The notes under the pieces are model-generated. The model was not told the origin of the DNA, did not search any database, and saw only the letters and a list, made by a program, of their open reading frames with translations. From contig OY843749.1 of assembly GCA_963693025.1 (NCBI GenBank), forward strand, positions 438,935 to 502,934: a stretch of 64,000 nucleotides of DNA. The letters are read 5' to 3'. Numbering within the stretch: position 1 is the stretch's first letter; every line of letters begins with the position of its first letter. Below are positions 15,046-27,460 of this stretch, in pieces. The position numbers and the translations under genes are program-made. Source of the DNA: Arenicellales bacterium (lineage in GTDB: Bacteria > Pseudomonadota > Gammaproteobacteria > Arenicellales > Poriferihabitantaceae).

Positions 15046-15557
15046 TCTGTGTTGGTAGTCAGAGACTTCTGCAAAGCATCATCCGCGGCGATGACCGCCT
15101 TGGCGTTCTCCTCCCGCCCGGCACGCACCCGCGCCGCCAAGCCATCATCGGCAAGCGCCAAAATCTGCGCCGCCAAATGCCCCGCATTCTTCGCACCCGC
15201 TTTCCCAATCGCCACACAAGCCACCGGCACCCCACCGGGCATCTGCACCGTGGAAAGCAACGCATCCCGCCCATTCAAAGGTCCCCCATCCATCGGCACA
15301 CCAATCACCGGCCGCACCGTCAACGCCGCCACCGCCCCCGCCAAATGCGCCGCCAACCCCGCCCCCGCCACAAACACCCCACACCCTCGTTGCTCTGCGT
15401 CGACGACGTATTGCCGGGTTGCTTCGGGGGTTCTATGTGCTGATGCGATTCGGGCTTCGAATGGGACTTTTAGTTGTTTGAGCACTGCGAAGGTTGCTTG
15501 CATTGTTGGGAGGTCGGATTCTGAGCCCATTAGGACTGCTACGAATGGTTTGTTCAT
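15042..15557 (-). CDS. purE: N5-CAIR mutase PurE
   Basis: MNKPFVAVLMGSESD, SAHRTP, AGLAAHLAG, STVQMPGGVPVA. Confidence 0.95.
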   Translation of the reverse strand: MNKPFVAVLMGSESDLPTMQATFAVLKQLKVPFEARIASAHRTPEATRQYVVDAEQRGCGVFVAGAGLAAHLAGAVAALTVRPVIGVPMDGGPLNGRDALLSTVQMPGGVPVACVAIGKAGAKNAGHLAAQILALADDGLAARVRAGREENAKAVIAADDALQKSLTTNTD

Positions 15558-15626
15558 TGGTTGGTGGGTGGTGGGTGTGGGGGGTAAGGGTAGCGAAATT
15601 GGGGTGGGGGGGCAAGGGTGATAACG

Positions 15627-16021
15627 CGTCATTCTCGAGCGTTAGTGTCCGTTTGCCGCCGCGCTTCTTCTTGCGGCGGCTTACGGACACTTGCGTCCTC
15701 GGGAATCTCCCTAAGGTTGGCACGGACTTGAACAAAGCGAGCGAAGCGGGCGGCGGGTAAGCCGCCGGTTTTTTGGTTTTTTGGATGGGGGCTTCGGTAA
15801 AGTCCACGCTAGTCTTAGAGAGATTCCCAAGGTCGTAAGCGCCCGTAAGCCGCTACGCGGCAACGGGCGCTAACGCTCGAGAGTGACGGAGTTGGGGGTT
15901 TTTGGTTGGGGGCTTTGTTGGAATTCACGGTAGGCTTAGGGAGATTCCCGAGGTCGTAAGTGTCCGGTAAGCCGCCGCTTAAAAGAAAAAGCGCGGCGGC
16001 AACGGACACTAACGCTCGAGA
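15627..16021. repeat. CGTC repeat cluster (A+C dimer 15627-15888, then an inverted arm A interrupted by IS110)
   Basis: Same IRs; the last arm breaks at CTCGAGA (16021) and resumes as ATGACG at 17233. Confidence 0.93.
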
Positions 16022-16037
16022 GTATCTGTGTTAAAAA

Positions 16038-16988
16038 TCAAGCGATATTTGCCGCCGCCGGCGTGTAGTTTTTCAGCCATGGGGTGCCGCGTTTGGCGAC
16101 TGCGTTTAGTTGGGTTAGCAGTTTTCGCATGACTGCCACTTGCGCCACTTTGGGCGGTTTGCCGCGGGCGCGTAGGCGCTCGTAAAACGCCTTCATCTCG
16201 GGGTTATAACGGCACGCCGACACCGCTCCCATGTAAAACGCGCAGCGCGGCTGCGCCCGACCGCCGCGGATGCTGCGCTTGGCGCGCATGGTGCCGCTGT
16301 CGCGCGCATACGGCGCCACGCCCATCAGCGCCGCAATCCGCCGATCGCTCACTTGCCCCAACTCCGGCAAATACGCCAGCAGGGTCATCGCAATCACTTC
16401 GCCGACACCGGTGACACTCTGATACAACGCCGCGCGCTCAGCCAACTCCGGCGCCGAACGCACGCACTCGCGGCAGGCTTTACTCACTGCTTCAATCTCC
16501 TCATCCAGCCACGCCAGATGCCGAAGGCACGATGCCTCAACGACCTCATCCGGACGCTTCTCCAGCCGGTTCTTCTCCTGCACTCGCTGCTTCACCAACT
16601 GCTCGCGACGCCTCATCAAGTCGCTCAACGCTTGACTCTCCGCGCTGCGCGCCGGCGTCGGCGGCAACTTCATCAGCGTCGCAAACTCAGCCAGCGTCCG
16701 CGCATCCAACTTGTCGGTCTTCGCCAACCGACCGCACGATTTCGCGTAGTCTTTGGCTCGCACCGGATGCACCACTTTCACCGGCATCCGCGCCGCATGC
16801 AGCGCGCGCACCAGATGGCGCTCATAACTGGACGCATCGCAAGCCACCTGCTCCACCGCGTTGTCGCGCAACCAAACCAACAGCGCCGGAAAGCCAGCAT
16901 CATCGTTGCTAAACTGCTGCGAGAAACCACCCGGCAACCACACATCCAAATACGCTTTGCCCACATCAATACCCGCAAACTTCTTCAT
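16038..16988 (-). CDS. IS110-family bridge recombinase (RuvC-like DEDD domain + Tnp20 domain)
   Basis: GIDVGK, KTDKLDA, GVG...A, RDSG, GKPPKVAQVAVMRKLL; AGGAGG RBS upstream of ATG 16988. Confidence 0.95.
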   Translation of the reverse strand: MKKFAGIDVGKAYLDVWLPGGFSQQFSNDDAGFPALLVWLRDNAVEQVACDASSYERHLVRALHAARMPVKVVHPVRAKDYAKSCGRLAKTDKLDARTLAEFATLMKLPPTPARSAESQALSDLMRRREQLVKQRVQEKNRLEKRPDEVVEASCLRHLAWLDEEIEAVSKACRECVRSAPELAERAALYQSVTGVGEVIAMTLLAYLPELGQVSDRRIAALMGVAPYARDSGTMRAKRSIRGGRAQPRCAFYMGAVSACRYNPEMKAFYERLRARGKPPKVAQVAVMRKLLTQLNAVAKRGTPWLKNYTPAAANIA

Positions 16989-17040
16989 CAAAGCACCTCC
17001 TAACAAAAGCAACAAAAGGGTTAAAATGAGTTAACATCAG

Positions 17041-17217
17041 CGCTGTTTCCGCACACTTATATACGGGGCATTATCCCCAAGCATCTGTTCGCGGCAACAA
17101 CGGCGCGAGGGGTCCGTACTCTCGAACGCTGCAGCAGGAATCAATGACACCTGCCCAGCACATGACAAACCGGTTCACCCCTCGCGCCCACCCTCTACTC
17201 TGGCCTGAATAGGGGGT
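17041..17217 (-). ncRNA. Predicted bridge RNA of IS110 copy 1
   Basis: 5' hairpin (17191-17216); target loop closed by GGCGCGAGGGG/CCCCUCGCGCC with guides UUUGUCAU and UCGAGAG; donor loop with ACAGAUGCU and AUAUAAG. Ends approximate. Confidence 0.85.
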
Positions 17218-17345
17218 AAACTGAACATATAAATGACGAAGTTGTTGTTGTGAATGACGAAGTTGGGGGGTGGCGGGGTTGGGGGAATGACGGGGAGGGT
17301 GGTAGAATAACCAACCACCAAAATAACCAGCCCCAAACCATCCCC

Positions 17346-17639
17346 ATGCCTGACAAGCAACCCGCAATCTACATTATGGCGAACAAGCGAGACGGGGCGA
17401 TTTATACGGGGGTGACTTCCGACTTGTCTGCGCGTGTGTGGCAACACAGAACCAACGCAATCGGAAGTCATACCAAGAAATACAACATCCACCGGTTGGT
17501 TTATTTTGAGCAATGCGGGGATATGTATTCGGCTATTTCGCGGGAGAAGCAAATTAAAAAGTGGGGGCGGGGGCGGAAGGTGGAGTTGATTGAAAGGGAA
17601 AATCCGGAGTGGCGGGATTTGTGGGAGGATATTGGGTGA
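17346..17639 (+). CDS. Small stand-alone GIY-YIG nuclease (~97 aa)
   Basis: AIYIMANKRDGAIYTGVTSDLSARVWQH...LVYFEQ...AISREKQIKKW.R..K..LIE..NPEWRDL. Confidence 0.9.
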   Translation: MPDKQPAIYIMANKRDGAIYTGVTSDLSARVWQHRTNAIGSHTKKYNIHRLVYFEQCGDMYSAISREKQIKKWGRGRKVELIERENPEWRDLWEDIG

Positions 17640-17686
17640 GTTTGGTTTGTTATTTTTGGATGGTGGAAAATGGGGAGCGTCCTACT

Positions 17687-18148
17687 TCGTCATTCGAGCG
17701 TTAGTGTCCCCCGACTTCGTCATTCTCGAGCGTTAGTGTCCGCCGCCGCCGCCACAACAACAACAACAACTTCGTCATTCTCGAGCGTTAGTGTCCGTTA
17801 GTCGCCGCGCTTTTTCTTTTAAGCGGCGGGTTACGGACCACTTGCGTCCTCGGGAATCTCCCTAAGGTTGGCACGGATTCAAACGGAGTGAGCGAAGCGG
17901 GCGGCGGGTAAGCCGCCGGTCTTTTGGGTGGGGGGCTTTGTTGGAATTCGCGGTAGGGTTAGGGAGATTCCCGAGGTCGTAAGCGCCCGTAAGCCGCTAC
18001 GCGGCAACGGGCGCTAACGCTCGAGAATGACGGGGTTGGGGGTTTTTTGGGTGGGGGTTTTGTTGGAGTTCGCGGTAGTCTTAGGGAGATTCCCGAGGTC
18101 GTAAGCGCCCGTAAGCCGCTATGCGGCAACGGGCGCTAACGCTCGAGA
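17687..18148. repeat. CGTC repeat cluster (two stuttered partial arms, A+C dimer, second arm C interrupted by IS110)
   Basis: CGTCATT starts at ~17688, 17718 and 17773; dimer ends at 18032; next arm breaks at 18148. Confidence 0.93.
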
Positions 18149-18164
18149 GTATCTGTGTTAAAAA

Positions 18165-19115
18165 TCAAGCGATATTTACCGCCGCCGGCGTGTAGTTTTT
18201 CAGCCATGGGGTGCCGCGTTTGGCGACTGCGTTTAGTTGGGTTAGCAGTTTTCGCATGACTGCCACTTGCGCCACTTTGGGCGGTTTGCCGCGGGCGCGT
18301 AGGCGCTCGTAAAACGCCTTCATCTCGGGGTTATAACGGCACGCCGACACCGCTCCCATGTAAAACGCGCAGCGCGGCTGCGCCCGACCGCCACGGATGC
18401 TGCGCTTGCCGCGCATTTTGCCGCTGTCGCGCGTATACGGCGCCACGCCCATCAGCGCCGCAATCCGCCGATCGCTCACTTGCCCCAACTCCGGCAAATA
18501 CGCCAGCAGGGTCATCGCAATCACTTCGCCGACACCGGTGACACTCTGATACAACGCCGCGCGCTCAGCCAACTCCGGCGCCGAACGCACGCACTCGCGG
18601 CAGGCTTTACTCACTGCTTCAATCTCCTCATCCAGCCACGCCAGATGCCGAAGGCACGATGCCTCAACGACCTCATCCGGACGCTTCTCCAGCCGGTTCT
18701 TCTCCTGCACTCGCTGCTTCACCAACTGCTCGCGACGCCTCATCAAGTCGCTCAACGCTTGACTCTCCGCGCTGCGCGCCGGCGTCGGCGGCAACTTCAT
18801 CAGCGTCGCAAACTCAGCCAGCGTCCGCGCATCCAACTGGTCGGTCTTCGCCAACCGACCGCACGATTTCGCGTAGTCTTTGGCTCGCACCGGATGCACC
18901 ACTTTCACCGGCATCCGCGCCGCATGCAGCGCGCGCACCAGATGGCGCTCATAACTGGACGCATCGCAAGCCACCTGCTCCACCGCGTTGTCGCGCAACC
19001 AAACCAACAGCGCCGGAAAGCCAGCATCATCGTTGCTAAACTGCTGCGAGAAACCACCCGGCAACCACACATCCAAATACGCTTTGCCCACATCAATACC
19101 CGCAAACTTCTTCAT
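18165..19115 (-). CDS. IS110-family bridge recombinase, copy 2
   Basis: Nearly identical to copy 1 (differences K>Q, A>T, T>K, A>G, A>V). Confidence 0.95.
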   Translation of the reverse strand: MKKFAGIDVGKAYLDVWLPGGFSQQFSNDDAGFPALLVWLRDNAVEQVACDASSYERHLVRALHAARMPVKVVHPVRAKDYAKSCGRLAKTDQLDARTLAEFATLMKLPPTPARSAESQALSDLMRRREQLVKQRVQEKNRLEKRPDEVVEASCLRHLAWLDEEIEAVSKACRECVRSAPELAERAALYQSVTGVGEVIAMTLLAYLPELGQVSDRRIAALMGVAPYTRDSGKMRGKRSIRGGRAQPRCAFYMGAVSACRYNPEMKAFYERLRARGKPPKVAQVAVMRKLLTQLNAVAKRGTPWLKNYTPAAVNIA

Positions 19116-19167
19116 CAAAGCACCTCCTAACAAAAGCAACAAAAGGGTTAAAATGAGTTAACATCAG

Positions 19168-19344
19168 CGCTGTTTCCGCACACTTATATACGGGGCATTA
19201 TCCCCAAGCATCTGTTCGCGGCAACAACGGCGCGAGGGGTCCGTACTCTCGAACGCTGCAGCAGGAATCAATGACACCTGCCCAGCACATGACAAACCGG
19301 TTCACCCCTCGCGCCCACCCTCTACTCTGGCCTGAATAGGGGGT
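19168..19344 (-). ncRNA. Predicted bridge RNA of IS110 copy 2
   Basis: Sequence identical by eye to 17041-17217. Confidence 0.85.
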
Positions 19345-19359
19345 AAACTGAACATATAA

Positions 19360-19567
19360 ATGACGAAGTTGTGGGGGTGGCACGGACTTGAACAAAGTGG
19401 GCGAAGCGGGTGGCGGGTAAGGCGCCGGTTTTTTGGGTTTTTTGGGTGGGGGCTTCGGTAAAGTCCACGGTAGTCTTAGGGAGATTCCCGAGGTCGTAAG
19501 TGTCCGGTAAGCCGCCGCTTAAAAGAAGAAGCGCGGCGGCAACGGACACTAACGCTCGAGAATGACG
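19360..19567. repeat. CGTC repeat (remainder of the interrupted terminus, spacer and inverted arm A)
   Basis: CTTAGGGAGATTCCCGAGG...CTAACGCTCGAGAATGACG ending at 19567. Confidence 0.9.
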
Positions 19568-19573
19568 GGGTTG

Positions 19574-22500
19574 CTAAAACTCCACTTCCCCCTTCAGCCA
19601 AACCCCCTGGTTGTTTTGGTGGTTGGTATACAGGTTCAAGTTTAGGTGGGGGGTTTTTTGGTATTTTAGGCCTAGGCGGTAGGATTGGGTTTTGCCTAGG
19701 GTTAGTTGGGTGTAGGGGGTTATTGGGTGGGTGGTTAGGCCGTAGGATAGGTTGGCGCGTAGATTGGCTTCTAATTTTGAGTCTGCTGTTGTTGAACCTG
19801 AGCCCAGGGTTGAGGCGGACGATGACGAACCCGCCCCCGCCGAACTCCTTATCCCCTCATCCCACACCTCACTCATCCGGCTACTTGAGTTGCCGTAGGT
19901 GGGGGTTAGGGATAGGGATAGGCCTTGGCCGTCTTTTCCGGGGGATAGGTTTAGGTGGGCGCTTATTCCCCAGTCGTCGTATTCTCCGCTGTGGCCGAAT
20001 AGGGCTCTGGCGTTTCCTGAGAGGGTTACGCCGCGGGCTTGGTTGGTGTATTGGATGCCGCCGCCTACTTCTATTCCGGAGCCGGTTTCGCCGTCTCCGG
20101 TGTCGGAGCGGATGCCGATTTCGGCGTTGCGGTTGAGTTCGCCGCCGGTGGCGGTGGTTTGTTTGTGGTTGCCTTCCAAGGCGAAGCGCAGGCGGTTGGC
20201 GTCTACTTCGCGCGCCATGTAGTCGTCGGTTTTGTCTACATCGGTTTTGGTGACGAAGGCTTCGGCTTTTAGGCGCATTTCGGTTTTGCCGAAGTGGAAC
20301 CAGGTGCCGCTGCCGCCGATGCCGAGCATTTGCGTGCTGATGTCGGTCTTATATGATTCGTCGGGGTCGTTATCAAAGGTGGCTTCGATTTCGCCGCTAC
20401 CGAAGCCGGCGGTCGCCCACATGTCCAGCCGCCCGTCGCGCGCGCTCCAGCCGAGGTAGGGGTTGACGCCGGTGTGGGTGAGGTCGTAGTCGCCGCCGCC
20501 GTTGATGCCGCCGGCGAACTCAATGTCCGCTTCGCTGTGGGTGACGAGCAAGCCGGTGAGCAGGTCGGGGCGCACGCGCGCGTCGAAGCCGAGGTTGACG
20601 CTGAACAGCGTGCCTTCCCAATCCAGCGCGCCGCTTTCGCCGCCGAGTTCGCGGTGGTCGCCGCCGCCCCAGAAGGTGGCGTTGTGCAATCCGCCGGCGC
20701 CGAATCCGCCGCCGCCCGCGCCCACCCCAAAGCCGCCGTTACCGTCGGCAGCTGCGGACAACGGCATCACGAATTCGGAGCCGCCGAGCGCGCGTTGGAA
20801 ATCTATGCCGTCGGTGTTGACCGCCGCATCGGCTTGCGTGGCGGCGATGCCTTCGAGCGTGGATTGCCCGGCGAATGACAGGCTCGCGCCGCCGCCGCCG
20901 CCCTCGCCGAGTTTGGCTTGGCGGATGCGGCGGGCAATCGCGCCGGTTTGCTGGTCTGCCATAGCGCGCACGATTTCGGGCAGGATGACGCGGTTGAGTT
21001 CATCGAGCGCGGCGGTTGGGGAGGGTCGGACCATGAACTCGGGCATGGTGAGGACGCCGTTTCTGAAGTAGTCGGCGTAGTTGCTAGCCCCGGTGACGGC
21101 GTGGCTGAGGCCGATGCCGTCGGGATAGGTGTCGGGCGTGAAGTCAGCGGTGGCGGTCACGGTCACCGTTTGTGGCATGCTCCAGTTGCCGGCGATGGCG
21201 GTGAATGTCAGCGCCGAGGCGGGCGTTAGCGTCACGCTTACCACGTCCGGCGGGACGGTGCTCGGCGTCACCAGCACATCGGCGCTCGGTGGGGTCTCCA
21301 GCACGATTGTATAGATCTTGCTCTCGCCCGGATTGAGGCTGAAACCGAGCGGGGCGAAGGTGATGCCGGCTTGGTTGACCGTCACCTGAAAAGCCTTCGT
21401 GACATCGCCGTAGTTTGCCCCGCTCGCCGTGTGGGCGATGGTGAAACTGCCGGCGGTGCTGGCGGGGGCATCCGGGGGGGACATCAACGCCACCTGCACC
21501 GGCTGATTCCAGTTACTGTCGGAGAAGGTCAGCGTGGCGTCGGAGACCATGAGATTGTCGGCGTTGCTGCTCGCTATCATCACCGTGACATCGCCGGTCG
21601 GGAGTTCGGAAAGCCGCACGCTGTAATCCATATCCGTGCCTTCGCCGAAGTTGGCGGCGGCGGTGATGCTCTCCGGGGTAAACGTCAGGTCAGGACCCGG
21701 CACCCTAATCGTATAAAACGCCCCCGCAGGCATGGGGATAGGCACGCCCCCCACGGTCGCGCCCGGACCGGTGAGCGAGGTCATCCGTATTTCATAGTCC
21801 CCGGCGGCGCCGGCGGGAATCACCACATCCAATGCCCCCAGGGGGAGGTTGGCACCGGTGGGGTTGGCTTCGGGCATGAAGACGACCGGAGACGGGTTGA
21901 GCGTTGGCAAGTAGGTGGGGGTGTCGCCGTCCATGCGCACCACTTCAAACGCGACCGTCAAATTGCCTTCCAGATGGGTGTTGATATCCAGTTCAATGGT
22001 CAGGGTCTCGCCCGGTCTGACGACCCGCGGGTCTGCGGGTGTGCCGCTTCCGCCGCCGCCGCTACCGGTGCTTAAAGCCCTTGTCGAAGTGATCCTCGGC
22101 GAAGCCACTCCCACACCAACGCTCGTGGAAAGCGCGGCATATTCGGGCGCGTCATCGCTGCTGGATGTGTGCCTGACTTGCAGGGTGAAGTCATCGGCTT
22201 GCCGCTCGGCAACGGTGACGGTTACCAACTTCCTGGTGAGCCAGTCATCTTGGCTGGCGGCGGTGAAAGTCAGCGTGGCGGGGGTGATTTCGCCTTGCGA
22301 CGCCGTCAACGACACCACCACCGTGCCGTCACCGGCGGGCTGGGTCGCCAGCGCGACTCCGTAGATGAGCGTGCCGTCCGCATTGATGATGTTTAGCCCA
22401 CTGTTCGGCAACGGACCGCCCGCTTCCGTGAGAACCAAAATCTCCGCCACATCGTTCTCAATAATCGTCACATTAAACGGACCAGCAGGCTGGGTGGCGT

Positions 22501-25500
22501 CGATGCCTTCATACGACTCACCCGTGGCGGTGGCGGCGCCGGAAATCGCGTGCGTAATCGTCTGCGTGAGGTCGCCGTCGTCAATCACGTCGCCGACAGT
22601 GCCCACCGTGACCATTTGCGCCATCGCCCAGTTGGTGGCGTCAAAAACCAGCGCCGCCGGCGTGAATGTCAAATCCGCCGCGCCAGTGCCCGGTCCGTGC
22701 GCCGGCGTCACCGTCACCAACCCGCGCGGGTCGCTCGCCAGCACAATAGTATAAGTATCCGTCTCGCCACCTTCGTCAATCCGCAAATTATCCACCCCCC
22801 CCACCAAAACCCCCGGCGTGTCGTTGGTAATCGTCACTTCAACCGGCGGGATGGTTTCGCTGTTGTAATCGCCGCCGGAGACGCTGTGGGTGACCATCAG
22901 CGTTACATGCTCAAGGCTGTCGTCGCGCCCCGGCGCGGCGGTGATGCTCACGGTCTGGCGCACATTCCAGTTGGCGTCGGTGAAGGTCAGCGCGTCCGGC
23001 AGCGTCAATTCGCCGCTCAAACTCGCGCTCGGGGTAATCACCACATCCGCCGCCGGCAGGCTGTTCAAGACGATGGTGTAGATTAGGCTGCTGGCGCTGT
23101 CGCCTTCCAGCACGCTCTTGTCGTCCGCGGTGAACAACGCCCCGCCGGCAATCACATCGGCGACATCGTCATCCGCCACCGTCACCGCCACCGAGCCGAC
23201 GCTGGCGCCGTTGTAATCATCCCCCGCGCTCACCGCGGTGTGGCTGATGTTCGCCGAATCGTCGTTGTTGGCGCCGCCCTCGCCGGTGTCTCTGGCGGTG
23301 TCGTGCGCGGCGGCAACGGTGACCACTTGCGGCGTGTTCCAGGTGGCGTCGGTGAACACCAACGCGCCGCTCGGTGTCAGCGTCAGGTCGCTGTCGTCCG
23401 GCGCCACCGCCGGCGTGATGGTCACATCCTCCGACGGAATATCGCCCAACATCACGGTGTAGGTCGTGAATTCGCCCTCGTCCACGCTCAGCGCGCTCGC
23501 CGAGACCAGCACGCCGACCACATCGTCGTCGACCACGGTGACGGTGAACTGCTGTTCGCCGATGTCGTCGTCGGCGTAGTTGGTGGCGCTGTGGGTGACG
23601 GTGAAGGTGCGGTCAGCCTCGCCGCCCTCGCCGTTGTCAAGTGCCGTTACCCCCACCGTTTGCGTCACTTGCCAGTTGTCGGCGGTGAACCGCACCTCGG
23701 GAATGGTCAGGTAGCCGCCCGCCAGCGGGGTGGCGGCGACATAGACGGGGGTGATGGTGGCAACGCCGTCGGGAATGCCGAGCAGTTCCACGGTGTAAGT
23801 CGGGCTCGCCCCGCCTTCGTTCACCCGCAGCGGCTCAGTGGAAATCACCACATTGGGGTCGTTGTTGTAAATCGTGACCGCCACATCCGCCGTCGTGGCG
23901 TCAAAGGCGGAACCGTAGCGCAATGCTCGGGGGTCGGTTGTCGGTATGGTTATCGGCTCGTCTATACCAATCACCTGACCGGCGCTCGTCGCGTGATCCT
24001 CGGGGAAGACGTCGGTTACGCCGTCGGCGAACGCCAGCGTGCGAATGCCGCCGGACAATTCGTGGGTGATGGAGACGGTGTCCGACCTGCGCGTGTCTTC
24101 GTCATTATCCGCGCTCACCACGGACACCGTCTGCGGCGTGTTCCAAGTGGCGGCGGTGAAGGTCAGGGCGGCGGTTGAGGGGTGCACGCTCAGCCGCGAG
24201 TCGGGGTCGTTTGTCGTACTCGGCGTGACGATGACCGCGCCGGCGCTGTCTAACGGGGGCTGTACGCTGAAGCCCGGTATGCCGTGGGGCGGCACGCCGG
24301 TGAGCGAGACGGTGTAGGTGCCGGCGCCGCCTTCGTTGATGGTGATGCCGGACGCCGAGACGGTGATGCCTTGCTCCTCAAGCGGGTCGTCATCCGCGAT
24401 AGGCATCGCAAAAACCGCAGGAGCGGCGCCGTAATACTCTCTTCTTCCGGGTACTGTACTTGAGCCAGTCGGCTCGTATCGAATTTGATAGTACGAATCG
24501 GCGCTGTTGGCGTCTTGAGCCGTCGTGATGGACCTCGACACCGGGATGTGCCAGTTGTCGGGGCTAAAGATTAAGTTCGAGCCTACAGTAAAGTTGCGGG
24601 CGAAAGTATTCTCATTCGCCTCATGGTACCGGTTGAGATTCCGCTGGTTGGTATTGAACTGGCTAATTATCACGTTGTCGAGCAACGGTCTCGCCCCCAG
24701 CCGGACGGTGTGGTGGGAGACGCCGCCTTCGGTGACGGTCAAGCGCGCGGGCTCAATGACGATGCGCGGCTGACCCACCACCGTCACGGTGATGGCGGGG
24801 ACTGGCAAGCCGTCGTAGGTGCCGTAGCCGGCGACCGTGTGCGTAATCGTGGCGATGTCGTCGATGGTGTCCTCGCCGGCGGCGGTGGCGGTCACCGGTT
24901 GCGGCGTGTTCCAGTTGGCGGCGGTGAACACCAGCGTGCCGTCGGCGTTGCCGGTGTTCAGCGTGACGGCGGCGGGGTTGTCGTTCGCCGGCGTGACCGT
25001 CACCTCGCCGCGCGGCTGGGTGGCGAGCGCGACGGTGTACGCGCCGGTCGTGCTGGCAATCACATTCAGGTTATTGTCCGGATTAAGCGCCAACGCGGCT
25101 TCGTCGTCGTCGGCGATGGAGGCCGTAATCGGCGCGACGGTTGCGTAGTCGCCGCCGCTGCCGCCGCCGCTGCTGGCGTAGGCGAGGGTGGTGGTGTCGT
25201 TGTCGTTGTCAAAGTCGTGCGCGGCGGACACGAGCACCGTTCGCGGCACATTCCAATCGGCGACGGTGAACTCCACCGTCGGCGGGTCAAGCGTGAGCGC
25301 GCCCGCCGCGCCCGCCGCGGGCAACCCGGTCGGCGTCAGCGTCACCGTGCCGGTCGGCACGCTCTTCATCTCAAGGACAACCGTGGCAGGGTCGCCGCCC
25401 TCGTTCAGGGTGAAGGCGCCGGTGTTCGAGAAAATCAGTTCGTCGTTGTTGAGAACCGTCAGCGGAATCGAATCCGCGGACAGCGCGCCGTAACCGGCGA

Positions 25501-27460
25501 TGTCGCCGCCGCCGGGAGTGTTGGTAATGGTGCGAAGTTCGGTGTCAAACCCGCCGTTGTTCTCGCCGGCGGTGAGGCTGACGGTCTGCGGCGTGTTCCA
25601 GTTGGTGGTGGTGAAGGTCAAGGTGGCGGGGGCGAGCGTGACCGGCACAAAGGGGTTGGTGGCCGCCGCGCTGAGCGTCGGAGTGATGACCACGTTGCTA
25701 CCGGGCACGCTGTTCAGTTGCGCGGTGTAGAAGGCGGAGCCGCCCTCGGTCAGCAGCAGGGTTTGCTCGGAGAAGCGCATCGCGGCGCGGTCGTTATCCA
25801 GAATCGTGATGGTGACGACGCCGGGGTCGGAGAACCCGGGACCGCTGGCGAGGCTCGGCGTGAGGCGGAATGACAAGTCTGCGGTGCCCATGCCGCCGTC
25901 GATGGTGGACACGGACACGCACTGCGGCGTCCCGACGGCGGTCAACGGCGGCAACGTCCCGCCGGTCGCCATCGGGGCGGGCAACGTGTAATGGTCGCTG
26001 GTGGCGCCGTTGGTGAAACCGGCGTTGTCCGGCGTCAGCAGAATGTTCAAAGGGCTCGTCGCGAGGTTAATGTCGGCGGGCGAGCGCACGACTTCCAAGC
26101 ACACATCCGTCGCGCTCCCTTCAGCGAGGCGAAGCGCGGTTGGCGTCGTGAAGCGCAGCAGCGGCGCTTCTTGAACCGTCAGCGTGAAATCCGCAGCCGG
26201 ACCCACGTCTTCCCCGAAACGCACGCGCTGCGAGATGACGACGCTGTCGGTGTCCCCGTCCTCATCCGGCAACGCCGTAACGGTAACCTGCTGCACCGTA
26301 TTCCAGTTGGCTTTGGTGAAGGTCAGCGTGTCGGGGGTGAGCCTGGCGAGGGTGTCGCCGTCGTCATCCATCGCGGCGCTGCCGGTGACGACCACGCTGC
26401 CGCCGGGTTGCAGCCAATCCGAGGCGAGGGCGACATCATAGGAGCCGCGCTGGTTTTCGCGCAAGGTCGCCGGGGTGCGGGCGATGGCGAGGACGGCGCC
26501 GATGCGGTCGTCGTCGATGATGTTGACGGTGAGGGTCTCGTTGACTATCGCGACATTCGCCACGGGATTTGACGGGTTGTTAAAGGAATTGATGGCTGTC
26601 AGCCGGACGGTAAACTGCTCGTTGCCCTCGGGGTAAGCGTCATTCTCGAGGCCCATACTTTGGACAACGGGGACAAAGTCGTTGCTGTGTTCTGCGTGGA
26701 GGCCGAATTGGAACGAACCGAGTCCGGATAAACCGTAGGCGTCAACGCCGCCGCCGCTCCCGCCGGCGTAGGTGGCGCTGCCGCTTATTCCCTGCGTGTT
26801 AAAGTAGAGGAAGTCGCCGCCGGTGTAACCGGGGGTTTCGTAGGTGACTCGGCGCATCGGCGGGTTCATTACTTGCACGCGTAAAGGGACCCCGGTGCCA
26901 ATATCATCGCCCTCGCCGAAAGTTGCTGTATCACCAGCATGGTCCCAGCGAAGAATCGGGCGCTCCGGCGCCAGCCCGCTCACCGCCGGACCGACGCTGA
27001 CCGAGGCGCCGCTCGCCGCGTGGGTGATGGTGAAGGGGTTGTCAATCGCATCGGCATCCACAATGCCGGTTACCGTGACCGACTGCGCGGTGTTGTAGTT
27101 GGCGGGGGTGAATGTCAGCGTCGCCGGCGAAATGGAAACCGCGCCGGCGCCGACGCTAATGGAAGGCGTAACCGTCACGTTGCCGCTGGGGGCGGTCTGC
27201 AACGTCACGCCATAACTGCCGGTCAGCCCTTCAACAACGAGATTCTGGGTTGTCGGGAAATTACCGTGAGTGTCCCGAGTAAACCCCGCCGAAATCACCA
27301 CCCCCCCCGCCGTCTGGGCGAAGGCGGTTTGCGCGGTGAAGGTGGCAAGAAGAAGGGCGGCAAGCAAAGCCAGCCACCGGCGGCGAGGGTCAAGGTCTGG
27401 ATTCATGGGGTCGTCTCGGGTCATGAGGTTGTGAGCCATTTCGGTTAGGGTAAATGCCAT
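19574..27460 (-). CDS. Giant autotransporter-type adhesin with tandem Ig/Calx-beta/cadherin-like repeats
   Basis: Signal peptide (RRRWLALLAALLLATFTAQTAFA); more than 10 repeats with YTVxLxxxPxxxVTVTP...LTFTxxNWNTPQTVTV and acidic DDD motifs; C-terminal beta-barrel-like region ending in F. Start may be 27406. Confidence 0.8.
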   Translation of the reverse strand: MAFTLTEMAHNLMTRDDPMNPDLDPRRRWLALLAALLLATFTAQTAFAQTAGGVVISAGFTRDTHGNFPTTQNLVVEGLTGSYGVTLQTAPSGNVTVTPSISVGAGAVSISPATLTFTPANYNTAQSVTVTGIVDADAIDNPFTITHAASGASVSVGPAVSGLAPERPILRWDHAGDTATFGEGDDIGTGVPLRVQVMNPPMRRVTYETPGYTGGDFLYFNTQGISGSATYAGGSGGGVDAYGLSGLGSFQFGLHAEHSNDFVPVVQSMGLENDAYPEGNEQFTVRLTAINSFNNPSNPVANVAIVNETLTVNIIDDDRIGAVLAIARTPATLRENQRGSYDVALASDWLQPGGSVVVTGSAAMDDDGDTLARLTPDTLTFTKANWNTVQQVTVTALPDEDGDTDSVVISQRVRFGEDVGPAADFTLTVQEAPLLRFTTPTALRLAEGSATDVCLEVVRSPADINLATSPLNILLTPDNAGFTNGATSDHYTLPAPMATGGTLPPLTAVGTPQCVSVSTIDGGMGTADLSFRLTPSLASGPGFSDPGVVTITILDNDRAAMRFSEQTLLLTEGGSAFYTAQLNSVPGSNVVITPTLSAAATNPFVPVTLAPATLTFTTTNWNTPQTVSLTAGENNGGFDTELRTITNTPGGGDIAGYGALSADSIPLTVLNNDELIFSNTGAFTLNEGGDPATVVLEMKSVPTGTVTLTPTGLPAAGAAGALTLDPPTVEFTVADWNVPRTVLVSAAHDFDNDNDTTTLAYASSGGGSGGDYATVAPITASIADDDEAALALNPDNNLNVIASTTGAYTVALATQPRGEVTVTPANDNPAAVTLNTGNADGTLVFTAANWNTPQPVTATAAGEDTIDDIATITHTVAGYGTYDGLPVPAITVTVVGQPRIVIEPARLTVTEGGVSHHTVRLGARPLLDNVIISQFNTNQRNLNRYHEANENTFARNFTVGSNLIFSPDNWHIPVSRSITTAQDANSADSYYQIRYEPTGSSTVPGRREYYGAAPAVFAMPIADDDPLEEQGITVSASGITINEGGAGTYTVSLTGVPPHGIPGFSVQPPLDSAGAVIVTPSTTNDPDSRLSVHPSTAALTFTAATWNTPQTVSVVSADNDEDTRRSDTVSITHELSGGIRTLAFADGVTDVFPEDHATSAGQVIGIDEPITIPTTDPRALRYGSAFDATTADVAVTIYNNDPNVVISTEPLRVNEGGASPTYTVELLGIPDGVATITPVYVAATPLAGGYLTIPEVRFTADNWQVTQTVGVTALDNGEGGEADRTFTVTHSATNYADDDIGEQQFTVTVVDDDVVGVLVSASALSVDEGEFTTYTVMLGDIPSEDVTITPAVAPDDSDLTLTPSGALVFTDATWNTPQVVTVAAAHDTARDTGEGGANNDDSANISHTAVSAGDDYNGASVGSVAVTVADDDVADVIAGGALFTADDKSVLEGDSASSLIYTIVLNSLPAADVVITPSASLSGELTLPDALTFTDANWNVRQTVSITAAPGRDDSLEHVTLMVTHSVSGGDYNSETIPPVEVTITNDTPGVLVGGVDNLRIDEGGETDTYTIVLASDPRGLVTVTPAHGPGTGAADLTFTPAALVFDATNWAMAQMVTVGTVGDVIDDGDLTQTITHAISGAATATGESYEGIDATQPAGPFNVTIIENDVAEILVLTEAGGPLPNSGLNIINADGTLIYGVALATQPAGDGTVVVSLTASQGEITPATLTFTAASQDDWLTRKLVTVTVAERQADDFTLQVRHTSSSDDAPEYAALSTSVGVGVASPRITSTRALSTGSGGGGSGTPADPRVVRPGETLTIELDINTHLEGNLTVAFEVVRMDGDTPTYLPTLNPSPVVFMPEANPTGANLPLGALDVVIPAGAAGDYEIRMTSLTGPGATVGGVPIPMPAGAFYTIRVPGPDLTFTPESITAAANFGEGTDMDYSVRLSELPTGDVTVMIASSNADNLMVSDATLTFSDSNWNQPVQVALMSPPDAPASTAGSFTIAHTASGANYGDVTKAFQVTVNQAGITFAPLGFSLNPGESKIYTIVLETPPSADVLVTPSTVPPDVVSVTLTPASALTFTAIAGNWSMPQTVTVTATADFTPDTYPDGIGLSHAVTGASNYADYFRNGVLTMPEFMVRPSPTAALDELNRVILPEIVRAMADQQTGAIARRIRQAKLGEGGGGGASLSFAGQSTLEGIAATQADAAVNTDGIDFQRALGGSEFVMPLSAAADGNGGFGVGAGGGGFGAGGLHNATFWGGGDHRELGGESGALDWEGTLFSVNLGFDARVRPDLLTGLLVTHSEADIEFAGGINGGGDYDLTHTGVNPYLGWSARDGRLDMWATAGFGSGEIEATFDNDPDESYKTDISTQMLGIGGSGTWFHFGKTEMRLKAEAFVTKTDVDKTDDYMAREVDANRLRFALEGNHKQTTATGGELNRNAEIGIRSDTGDGETGSGIEVGGGIQYTNQARGVTLSGNARALFGHSGEYDDWGISAHLNLSPGKDGQGLSLSLTPTYGNSSSRMSEVWDEGIRSSAGAGSSSSASTLGSGSTTADSKLEANLRANLSYGLTTHPITPYTQLTLGKTQSYRLGLKYQKTPHLNLNLYTNHQNNQGVWLKGEVEF

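What the first reader, a model, noticed from the sequence alone, without database searches (positions are those of the whole stretch)
16021..17232. IS110 with a fully readable bridge RNA programmed to hit the CGTC repeat terminus
Seen (minus strand): target is TTCGTCA-TT-CTCGA and the reconstructed donor junction is ACAGATA-CT-TATAT. The non-coding end has a 5' hairpin, then a loop closed by an 11-bp stem (17102-17112/17178-17188) holding UUUGUCAU (17162-17169, matches left target with one wobble) and UCGAGAG (17119-17125, complementary to core + right target). A second loop holds ACAGAUGCU (17080-17088, left donor + core, one wobble) and AUAUAAG (17056-17062, perfect complement of CTTATAT) around a GGGG/CCCC hairpin. 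Established: this is the IS621-type bridge RNA layout, and the donor resembles the IS621 donor as I recall it (ACAGTATCTTGTAT). The mechanism is known; this is a new compact (316 aa) ortholog parasitising a different repeat family. Empty perfect targets remain (e.g. 11696, 17716, 17771, 31755, 39187).
Basis: partly seen in the sequence, partly recalled or inferred. Interest (0 to 1): 0.75.

Follow-up and report, generated by a model that had tools for sequence, protein, structure and literature searches.

The report
Bridge-RNA transposon clade with mismatched core
This is a jumping gene of the known RNA-guided IS110 kind, found 13 times in the same spot of a host DNA repeat, and it differs from the genome-editing models in that the two-base crossover site of its landing place (TT) does not match the one at its own end (CT), a mismatch shared by most close relatives and written into its predicted guide RNA, which likely means that only one DNA strand sets the joints and would loosen a design rule for programmable DNA insertion.

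Summary
The element is an IS110-family recombinase with an IS621-like fold. It has 13 copies in the genome, all in a CGTC/dRS3-type repeat that has 1,076 empty copies.

This holds in 11 of 13 copies here (the other two carry two extra bases) and in 88 of 100 parsed loci (TT/CT in 20 of 23 genomes). One relative has recoded the donor and its three core-pairing guide positions to TT. No junction of bottom-strand type was found (0 of 100), so the top strand likely sets both joints.

Against activity: the catalytic DEDD reads DDDD, no two copies are identical, and no circle or RNA was seen. My paper searches found no description of natural mismatched cores; this scan has noted them before in three other genomes. 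Verdict: new variant of a known kind.

The parts
16021..17231 (-). IS110 element proper (right donor arm through left donor arm plus CT), 1,211 bp; one of 11 family-A copies
16038..16988 (-). 316-aa recombinase; D8, D51 (E60 in IS621), D92, D95, S231; ribosome-binding site at 17001-16996
17040..17220 (-). predicted bridge RNA (ends approximate): 5' hairpin, target-binding loop, donor-binding loop
   Evidence: expression not shown
17161..17169 (-). left target guide; position 8 is U and reads the target's T; positions 1 and 3 vary between copies
17117..17125 (-). right target guide (17125-17119, ends AG) and handshake guide UA (17118-17117); together the exact reverse complement of the right junction
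17080..17088 (-). left donor guide; position 8 is C, one G wobble at position 7
17054..17062 (-). right donor guide (17062-17056, ends AG) and handshake guide UG (17055-17054), which pairs with target C6-A7
17232..17240 (-). left half of the split repeat: left target (17240-17234) and target core TT (17233-17232)
16021..16029 (-). left donor arm (16029-16023) and donor core CT (16022-16021)
15932..16020 (-). right half of the split repeat: right target (16020-16016) and the rest of the hairpin
16036..16041 (-). predicted -35 box; 17 nt from the -10 box once the ends are joined
   Evidence: script printed 18 because it counted 17232; corrected by hand; inference
17224..17229 (-). predicted -10 box; used as my anchor for the left end, so present in all parsed loci by construction
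   Evidence: inference
18148..19358 (-). second family-A copy, same orientation, same junction type
17346..17639 (+). 97-aa single-domain GIY-YIG gene (Ssn-like) between the two copies
   Evidence: Ssn description in PMC11893778

Best explanation
An IS110 recombinase and its predicted bridge RNA likely insert the element into the host's CGTC repeat by cutting and swapping the top strand after position 9, with the host likely copying the other strand from it, so the left joint keeps the target's TT and the right joint keeps the element's CT. Shown in sequence: 13 of 13 copies have the same right joint in the repeat; 11 have TT on the left and CT on the right; the left target guide reads T at position 8 and the left donor guide reads C; both right guides end in AG. 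Inferred from the IS621 structures: that G forms a G.T wobble with whichever strand brings TT, before exchange in the target loop and after it in the donor loop, so the mismatch costs nothing net; the handshake guides go from 2 to 4 Watson-Crick pairs through position 6 and drive insertion, although position 7 is A in both partners. Inferred: top-strand excision would always rebuild a CT donor and a 17-nt-spaced promoter. The hundreds of intergenic repeats give safe landing sites.
For: Junctions in 13 copies. Empty sites: 1,076 TT against 8 CT; 540 TT against 14 CT in five other genomes. Among 100 parsed loci the left/right cores are TT/CT 85, CT/CT 11, CC/CT 2, TC/CT 1, TT/TT 1. Right-joint positions 6-9 are donor type in all 100, and no left joint carries donor positions 6-9. 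In the CC/CT case left-guide position 8 is C, and only 1 of 95 empty sites has CT. In L003 the donor core is TT, left donor guide position 8 is U and both right guides end AA. Right guide equals the right target in 87 of 100; 19 guide classes score 4.55 of 5 against 2.03 +/- 0.29 shuffled, 0 of 20,000. Literature: IS621 cuts top strands after position 9, and bottom strands at 9*/10*, which by the paper's numbering lies opposite top positions 5/6 (PMC11208158 sections 8 and 12); CazIS110 integrates by the top strand over 1,300-fold more efficiently (10.1101/2025.10.25.684509 passages).
Against: The junction pattern cannot tell top-strand-only transfer from full exchange followed by repair of a nicked bottom strand (PMC13626964 methods passage). 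The loci are kin, so 100 loci are not 100 independent events. My right-end pattern could not have parsed a bottom-type end: of 8 unparsed loci, 4 show donor-type ends (L108-L111) were not resolved. Two of 13 copies have a 2-bp longer left joint. The catalytic E is D, family A lacks one residue in the core-reading loop, and no two copies are identical (4-33 differences). IS621 itself strongly prefers CT in both partners (PMC11208160).
Confidence: 0.6

Rival explanations
1. Canonical four-strand exchange as in IS621 leaves a 4-nt heteroduplex (positions 6-9) beside an unligated bottom strand, and nick-directed repair copies the top strand. The chemistry is standard and only the tolerance of a core mismatch is new.
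For: Bottom-strand cleavage is seen in the IS621 structure. Unligated, mismatched bottom strands are the expected in vitro product. It predicts the same joints as observed.
Against: It needs repair to pick the top strand at both joints every time (0 of 100 exceptions). CazIS110 data favour top-strand integration.
Confidence: 0.28
2. The effective core is a single shared base (T9): both strands are exchanged around it and no mismatch forms.
For: T9 is shared in the 85 TT/CT loci. T9 is described as almost invariant and read by the protein (PMC11208158).
Against: CC/CT (2 loci) and TC/CT (1 locus) do not share base 9. Guides and handshake positions keep the two-base IS621 register, and L003 recodes position 8 in three guide positions at once.
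Confidence: 0.07
3. Family A (the window's copy) is catalytically weak or dead, and its copies are old or were moved in trans, for example by family B, which has the same donor arms.
For: D in place of the catalytic E is found in only 2 of the 120 nearest proteins, which are the clusters of these two families. Family A also has a one-residue deletion. No identical copies; 27 non-synonymous against 13 synonymous variable codons. IS621 E60 mutation abolishes recombination.
Against: All 11 reading frames are intact. The non-coding end is more conserved than the gene (3 of 244 against 44 of 951 variable sites, p = 0.015). Family B carries the same D, so a helper with E is not in this genome (13 hits only). 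The model keeps the IS621 fold (TM 0.81).
Confidence: 0.15

Closest known systems
IS621 (E. coli) and ISCro4/IS622 bridge recombinases (PMC11208160, PMC11208158, PMC13626964, bioRxiv 10.1101/2025.05.14.653916)
   Same: Fold (TM 0.79-0.82, 31-35% identity; E 2e-40 and 5e-36). Long left non-coding end with a three-part bridge RNA, two guide loops with handshake guides, REP-type target, and a similar donor (left arm 4 of 7, right arm 4 of 5 identical to the IS621 donor printed).
   Different: Target and donor cores differ (TT against CT), whereas IS621 has CT at both ends. Position 7 is identical in both partners, which the IS622 design rules filter out. The natural right target guide covers 7 nt. 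The tetrad reads DDDD. The target is a CGTC repeat.
CazIS110 (bioRxiv 10.1101/2025.10.25.684509) and IS621 single-strand excision (bioRxiv 10.64898/2026.08.31.748434)
   Same: Top-strand excision and integration would give exactly the joints seen here.
   Different: Those are biochemical results on other elements. The word 'core' does not occur in the CazIS110 text. Here the evidence is genomic only.
ISEc21 and ISEc11 seekRNA elements (PMC11187229)
   Same: The authors argue there is no target duplication and that one copy of the apparent duplication belongs to the element. This clade fits that view: CT belongs to the element's right end.
   Different: They do not describe a guide RNA that encodes different target and donor cores (passages read only). 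Sequence relationship to these elements was not tested.
Neisseria Nf1/MDA phage IS110 transposase integrating at dRS3 (PMC7058167)
   Same: IS110-type enzyme aimed at a CGTC-1 repeat (dRS3 equals CGTC-1, PMC3733652).
   Different: It is a phage integrase and targets a dRS3 subtype at a conserved CT motif. Here a stand-alone IS cuts at the base of the repeat stem, at TT.
CGTC REPs / NTS / Ssn-related motifs with SsnA nuclease (PMC3733652, PMC11893778)
   Same: Unpaired CGTC tag, stem starting with AT, hundreds of copies, and a small GIY-YIG gene flanked by repeats.
   Different: The loop is replaced by a long inserted hairpin (units of about 65-85 nt). Neither paper's searched passages link these repeats to IS110: the term occurs 0 times in each.

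Membership tests
IS110 family | PF01548 plus PF02371 domains; NCBIfam NF033542 above cut-off | tested here: met
   E 2.6e-23 and 6.3e-17; 199.4 bits against cut-off 140
IS110 family | RuvC-coiled coil-Tnp fold with catalytic serine | tested here: met
   model pLDDT 85.5; TM 0.81 to 8WT6; S231 invariant in 40 sequences
IS110 family | DEDD tetrad | tested here: not met
   D8-D51-D92-D95: the E is D in both families of this genome; 113 of 120 nearest proteins parse with E, 2 with D, 5 unparsed. Conservative change, so filed as a variant.
IS110 family | long non-coding end upstream of the gene, short right end | tested here: met
   243 nt upstream, 17 nt after the stop codon
IS110 family | site- and orientation-specific insertion | tested here: met
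   13 of 13 copies share the same right joint and orientation in the repeat
IS110 family | circular intermediate with junction promoter | tested here: inconclusive
   -35/-10 boxes 17 nt apart on joining; the joined form was not observed
IS621-type bridge system | 5' hairpin plus two guide loops, supported by covariation | tested here: met
   30 of 42 pairs with two-sided changes; 94.9% paired against 81.9% shuffled and 37-52% slid. The structure was derived from the same alignment.
IS621-type bridge system | guides covary with target and donor | tested here: met
   87 of 100 exact right-guide matches; right donor guide follows the donor in 100 of 100 over its last 4 nt
IS621-type bridge system | handshake guides pairing with the other partner's positions 6-7 | tested here: met
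   UA with donor T6-A7 in 91 of 100; UG in 99 of 100, facing target C6-A7 in 91
IS621-type bridge system | same core dinucleotide (CT) in target and donor | tested here: not met
   TT/CT in 11 of 13 copies; cores differ in 88 of 100 loci. Not filed as a canonical CT:CT system.
IS621-type bridge system | RNA is expressed, binds the protein and reprogrammes targeting | not testable with these tools
   needs RNA-seq and a recombination assay
CGTC REP / Ssn-related motif (target) | unpaired CGTC tag followed by a stem starting with AT | tested here: met
   folds of three empty units, z -2.9 to -5.7; definition in PMC3733652
CGTC REP / Ssn-related motif (target) | 4-5 nt loop, 20-40 bp unit | tested here: not met
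   long inserted hairpin, units mostly 65-85 nt; an enlarged variant
Ssn nuclease (neighbour gene) | membership of CDD family cd10448 | not testable with these tools
   only Pfam GIY-YIG (E 6e-14), size (97 aa) and flanking repeats were checked

The most novel reading that the evidence does not exclude
A clade of bridge recombinases spread over at least five named phyla plus this host needs no shared core at all. CT is part of the element's own end, the target core can be TT, CC or TC, and the bridge RNA encodes the asymmetry on purpose. The joints are a natural record that only the top strand is transferred, and the clade offers enzymes free of the CT-in-target rule.
Probability: 0.55. Interest if true: 0.68.

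Novelty: new variant of a known kind. Interest (0 to 1): 0.5.

Why it matters
Bridge-editing designs require matching cores, usually CT (10.1101/2025.05.14.653916; PMC13396178 names the CT preference as a constraint), and use different cores to keep two guides from cross-reacting (10.64898/2026.04.29.721476). A natural clade that routinely joins CT to TT, and sometimes to CC or TC, would widen the targetable sites and show how to program it: the left guide follows the target while the right guides keep G. It also bears on the open question of one-strand against two-strand integration, because the mismatch marks which strand wins. The original pipeline defined cores as repeats at both ends and favoured CT (PMC11208160 methods passage), which may be why such elements were not singled out.

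Tried and rejected
Circle junction: not found in Logan contigs of 7 runs (whole element on X1, X2, X3, X5; left end on X1, X4, X7, X8). Contigs drop rare variants, so this says nothing either way. No RNA holder listed. Rfam: 0 matches at E up to 1 over 15500-19600. The promoter scan of the linear locus does not list the junction promoter, as expected.

My first idea, that CT/CT elements are the ancestors of the TT/CT group, was not supported: in a quick tree of 47 proteins the CT/CT rows nest inside the TT/CT rows (the careful search did not finish and no clade test was run), so I claim no order of events. My guess that L027/L029 hit a TC core was wrong: empty sites have CT (0 matches; 10 and 23), and my left-guide register for those two rows is off by one. 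mis-parsed several guides and ends and was replaced; the right-donor-guide columns were shifted and were redone. Mutation of the left joint after insertion was rejected because empty sites are TT.

Rows dropped: of 179 loci, 175 had a protein hit; 67 distant loci (L113-L179) gave no ends with my anchors and were left out; 8 of the remaining 108 were unparsed.

Paper searches for prior description: (IS110 with mismatched core, core mismatch, non-matching core or TT core: 2 papers, neither on natural mismatched cores), and (DDDD: 0 papers). Subscription papers and supplements were not seen; the supplementary boundary tables of PMC11208160 may hold members of this clade. A look-up of earlier findings by sequence returned nothing.

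Full report
Observation. The window carries a 316-aa gene at 16988-16038 (minus strand) with both IS110 Pfam domains and an NCBIfam IS110 score above cut-off. Its model matches the IS621 and ISCro4 cryo-EM chains at TM 0.79-0.82. The four guides occur together in 0 of 20,000 shuffles of the non-coding end.

Copies and target. The genome holds 13 full copies: 11 of family A (93-100% amino-acid identity) and 2 of family B (59%). All 13 share the right joint ACAGATA-CT-CTCGA. Eleven have the left joint CGTCA-TT-TATAT and two have CGTCA-TT-CT-TATAT. The empty motif CGTCATTCTCGA occurs 1,076 times against 0.7 expected; the CT-core version occurs 8 times. The repeat has an unpaired CGTC tag and a stem starting with AT, enlarged by an inner hairpin. 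This places it with the CGTC REPs, whose Neisseria member is dRS3/NTS (PMC3733652, passages; PMC11893778, passages). One of only two small GIY-YIG genes found in the genome lies between the two window copies.

The bridge RNA. An alignment of 33 distinct non-coding ends gives a 5' hairpin and two guide loops; 30 of 42 pairs have two-sided changes, and slid controls fall from 94.9% to 37-52% paired. The structure was derived from that alignment, which favours it. Of 108 close loci examined, 100 had both ends parsed: 13 from this genome and 87 from 22 other genomes and metagenome contigs. The right target guide is the exact reverse complement of the right target in 87 of 100. Across 19 guide classes the mean match is 4.55 of 5, against 2.03 +/- 0.29 when classes are shuffled (0 of 20,000). 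These loci are kin, so the test overstates independence, but it shows natural reprogramming. Next to the right guides sit handshake dinucleotides: UA pairs with donor T6-A7, and UG pairs with target C6-A7. By the IS621 rules (PMC11208158 sections 8 and 12; PMC13626964 passages) this raises handshake pairing from 2 to 4 Watson-Crick pairs on exchange. That step is inferred.

The departure. Target and donor cores differ. Left/right cores are TT/CT in 85 of 100 loci (20 of 23 genomes), CC/CT in 2, TC/CT in 1, CT/CT in 11 and TT/TT in 1. Empty sites in five other genomes are TT 540 times and CT 14 times; in the CC/CT host only 1 of 95 is CT. The RNA encodes the asymmetry. Left-target-guide position 8 is U in all 86 TT loci and C in both CC loci, while both right guides end AG in 99 of 100. 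The exception proves the register: in L003 the donor core is TT, the left donor guide has U at position 8 and both right guides end AA. The 11 CT/CT cases are the two longer joints here, two copies retargeted to another palindrome with a true CT core, two sites that depart from the repeat consensus, and five metagenome loci with unrelated targets. Position 7 is A in both partners in most loci, a combination the IS622 design rules avoid (10.1101/2025.05.14.653916, passages).

How it likely works. In IS621 the top strands are cut after position 9 and the bottom strands opposite positions 5/6 (the register is my reading of the paper's numbering), so unequal bases at 6-9 form a heteroduplex. If both strands segregated unrepaired, half the copies would carry donor bases on the left and target bases on the right. 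None does: right-joint positions 6-9 are donor type in 100 of 100 and no left joint has them, and direct searches of this genome find 0 hybrid joints. My parser could not have read a bottom-type right end; 4 of the 8 unparsed loci show donor-type ends and 4 are unresolved. So the top strand sets both joints. I favour top-strand transfer finished by the host, in line with CazIS110 (10.1101/2025.10.25.684509, passages) and single-strand excision of IS621 (10.64898/2026.08.31.748434, abstract, introduction and passages). Full exchange with repair at a nicked bottom strand gives the same joints and is not excluded. A single shared T as core fails for the CC and TC targets.

The two longer joints. 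They fit a CT-to-CT exchange in a rare repeat variant with a doubled CT, guided by the right arm alone: 2 of 7 such sites are filled against 11 of 1,087 normal ones (p = 0.003). The 5 empty variants could instead be scars. One public run holds the same longer joint, but it may be the source sample.

Against present activity. The second catalytic residue is D, not E, in both families (2 of 120 nearest proteins), and family A lacks one residue in the loop that reads the core in IS621. No two family-A genes are identical (4-33 differences; 27 non-synonymous and 13 synonymous variable codons). On the other side, all 11 frames are intact and the non-coding end is more conserved than the gene (3 of 244 against 44 of 951 sites, p = 0.015).

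Comparison with what is known. The mechanism, RNA layout and REP parasitism are known (PMC11208160, passages). There, non-CT cores were tested only by changing target, donor and guides together. IS110 integration into a CGTC repeat is known from the Neisseria Nf1 phage (PMC7058167, passages). The seekRNA paper already argues that the apparent duplication belongs to the element (PMC11187229, passages). Searches found no account of natural elements with unequal cores. I read passages or named sections of 14 papers, none whole (the others are 10.64898/2026.08.14.744561; 10.64898/2026.04.29.721476; 10.64898/2026.03.19.712850; PMC13396178), and no supplements. This scan's earlier agents noted mismatched cores in three other genomes. 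Those notes are unchecked and came after I had recorded my reading; they suggest the trait is wider than this clade.

Verdict. The element works like IS621 and belongs to the IS110 family by curated profiles and fold, but it fails the literal DEDD and shared-core tests. It is a new variant of a known kind. Interest 0.5: the mechanism class is known and nothing is shown at the bench, but the clade-wide core asymmetry with a natural recoding control is directly testable and relevant to bridge editing.

Noticed in passing
window 16021-19358: Two same-orientation IS copies bracket one of the genome's two Ssn-like GIY-YIG genes, so the outer ends could move the nuclease gene as cargo in a 3.3-kb composite. 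Not tested.
   Followed up: partly
window 17169 and 17167: Of only 3 variable sites in the 244-nt left end of 11 copies, 2 lie in the left target guide (positions 1 and 3, C/U), facing the variable pyrimidine-rich start of the repeat. The 17169 variant is also in runs X1 and X5.
   Followed up: partly
G000, all family-A copies: All 11 sit in the repeat subtype continuing with GCGTTAG, which makes up 584 of 1,076 empty sites (p about 0.001) and folds more strongly in the few units folded. A target-hairpin effect is described for ISPpu10.
   Followed up: partly
G000, family-A coding sequences: Variants are shared in mixed combinations between copies, as after recombination or gene conversion.
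   Followed up: no
L027, L029: A Nitrospirales relative has been retargeted to a different palindromic repeat with a true CT core; both target guides changed.
   Followed up: yes
L003 (G007): Same-genus relative with a natural TT/TT core and matching changes in three guide positions.
   Followed up: yes
L045/L046: Two copies in tandem, separated by a short piece of repeat.
   Followed up: no
G000 repeats: 39 repeat copies lack the CT after the TT core and 5 have it doubled; slippage or element scars.
   Followed up: partly
window 19574-27460: A 2,628-aa open frame with many repeated segments and an aromatic C-terminus, resembling a large surface protein (resemblance recalled, not tested).
   Followed up: no
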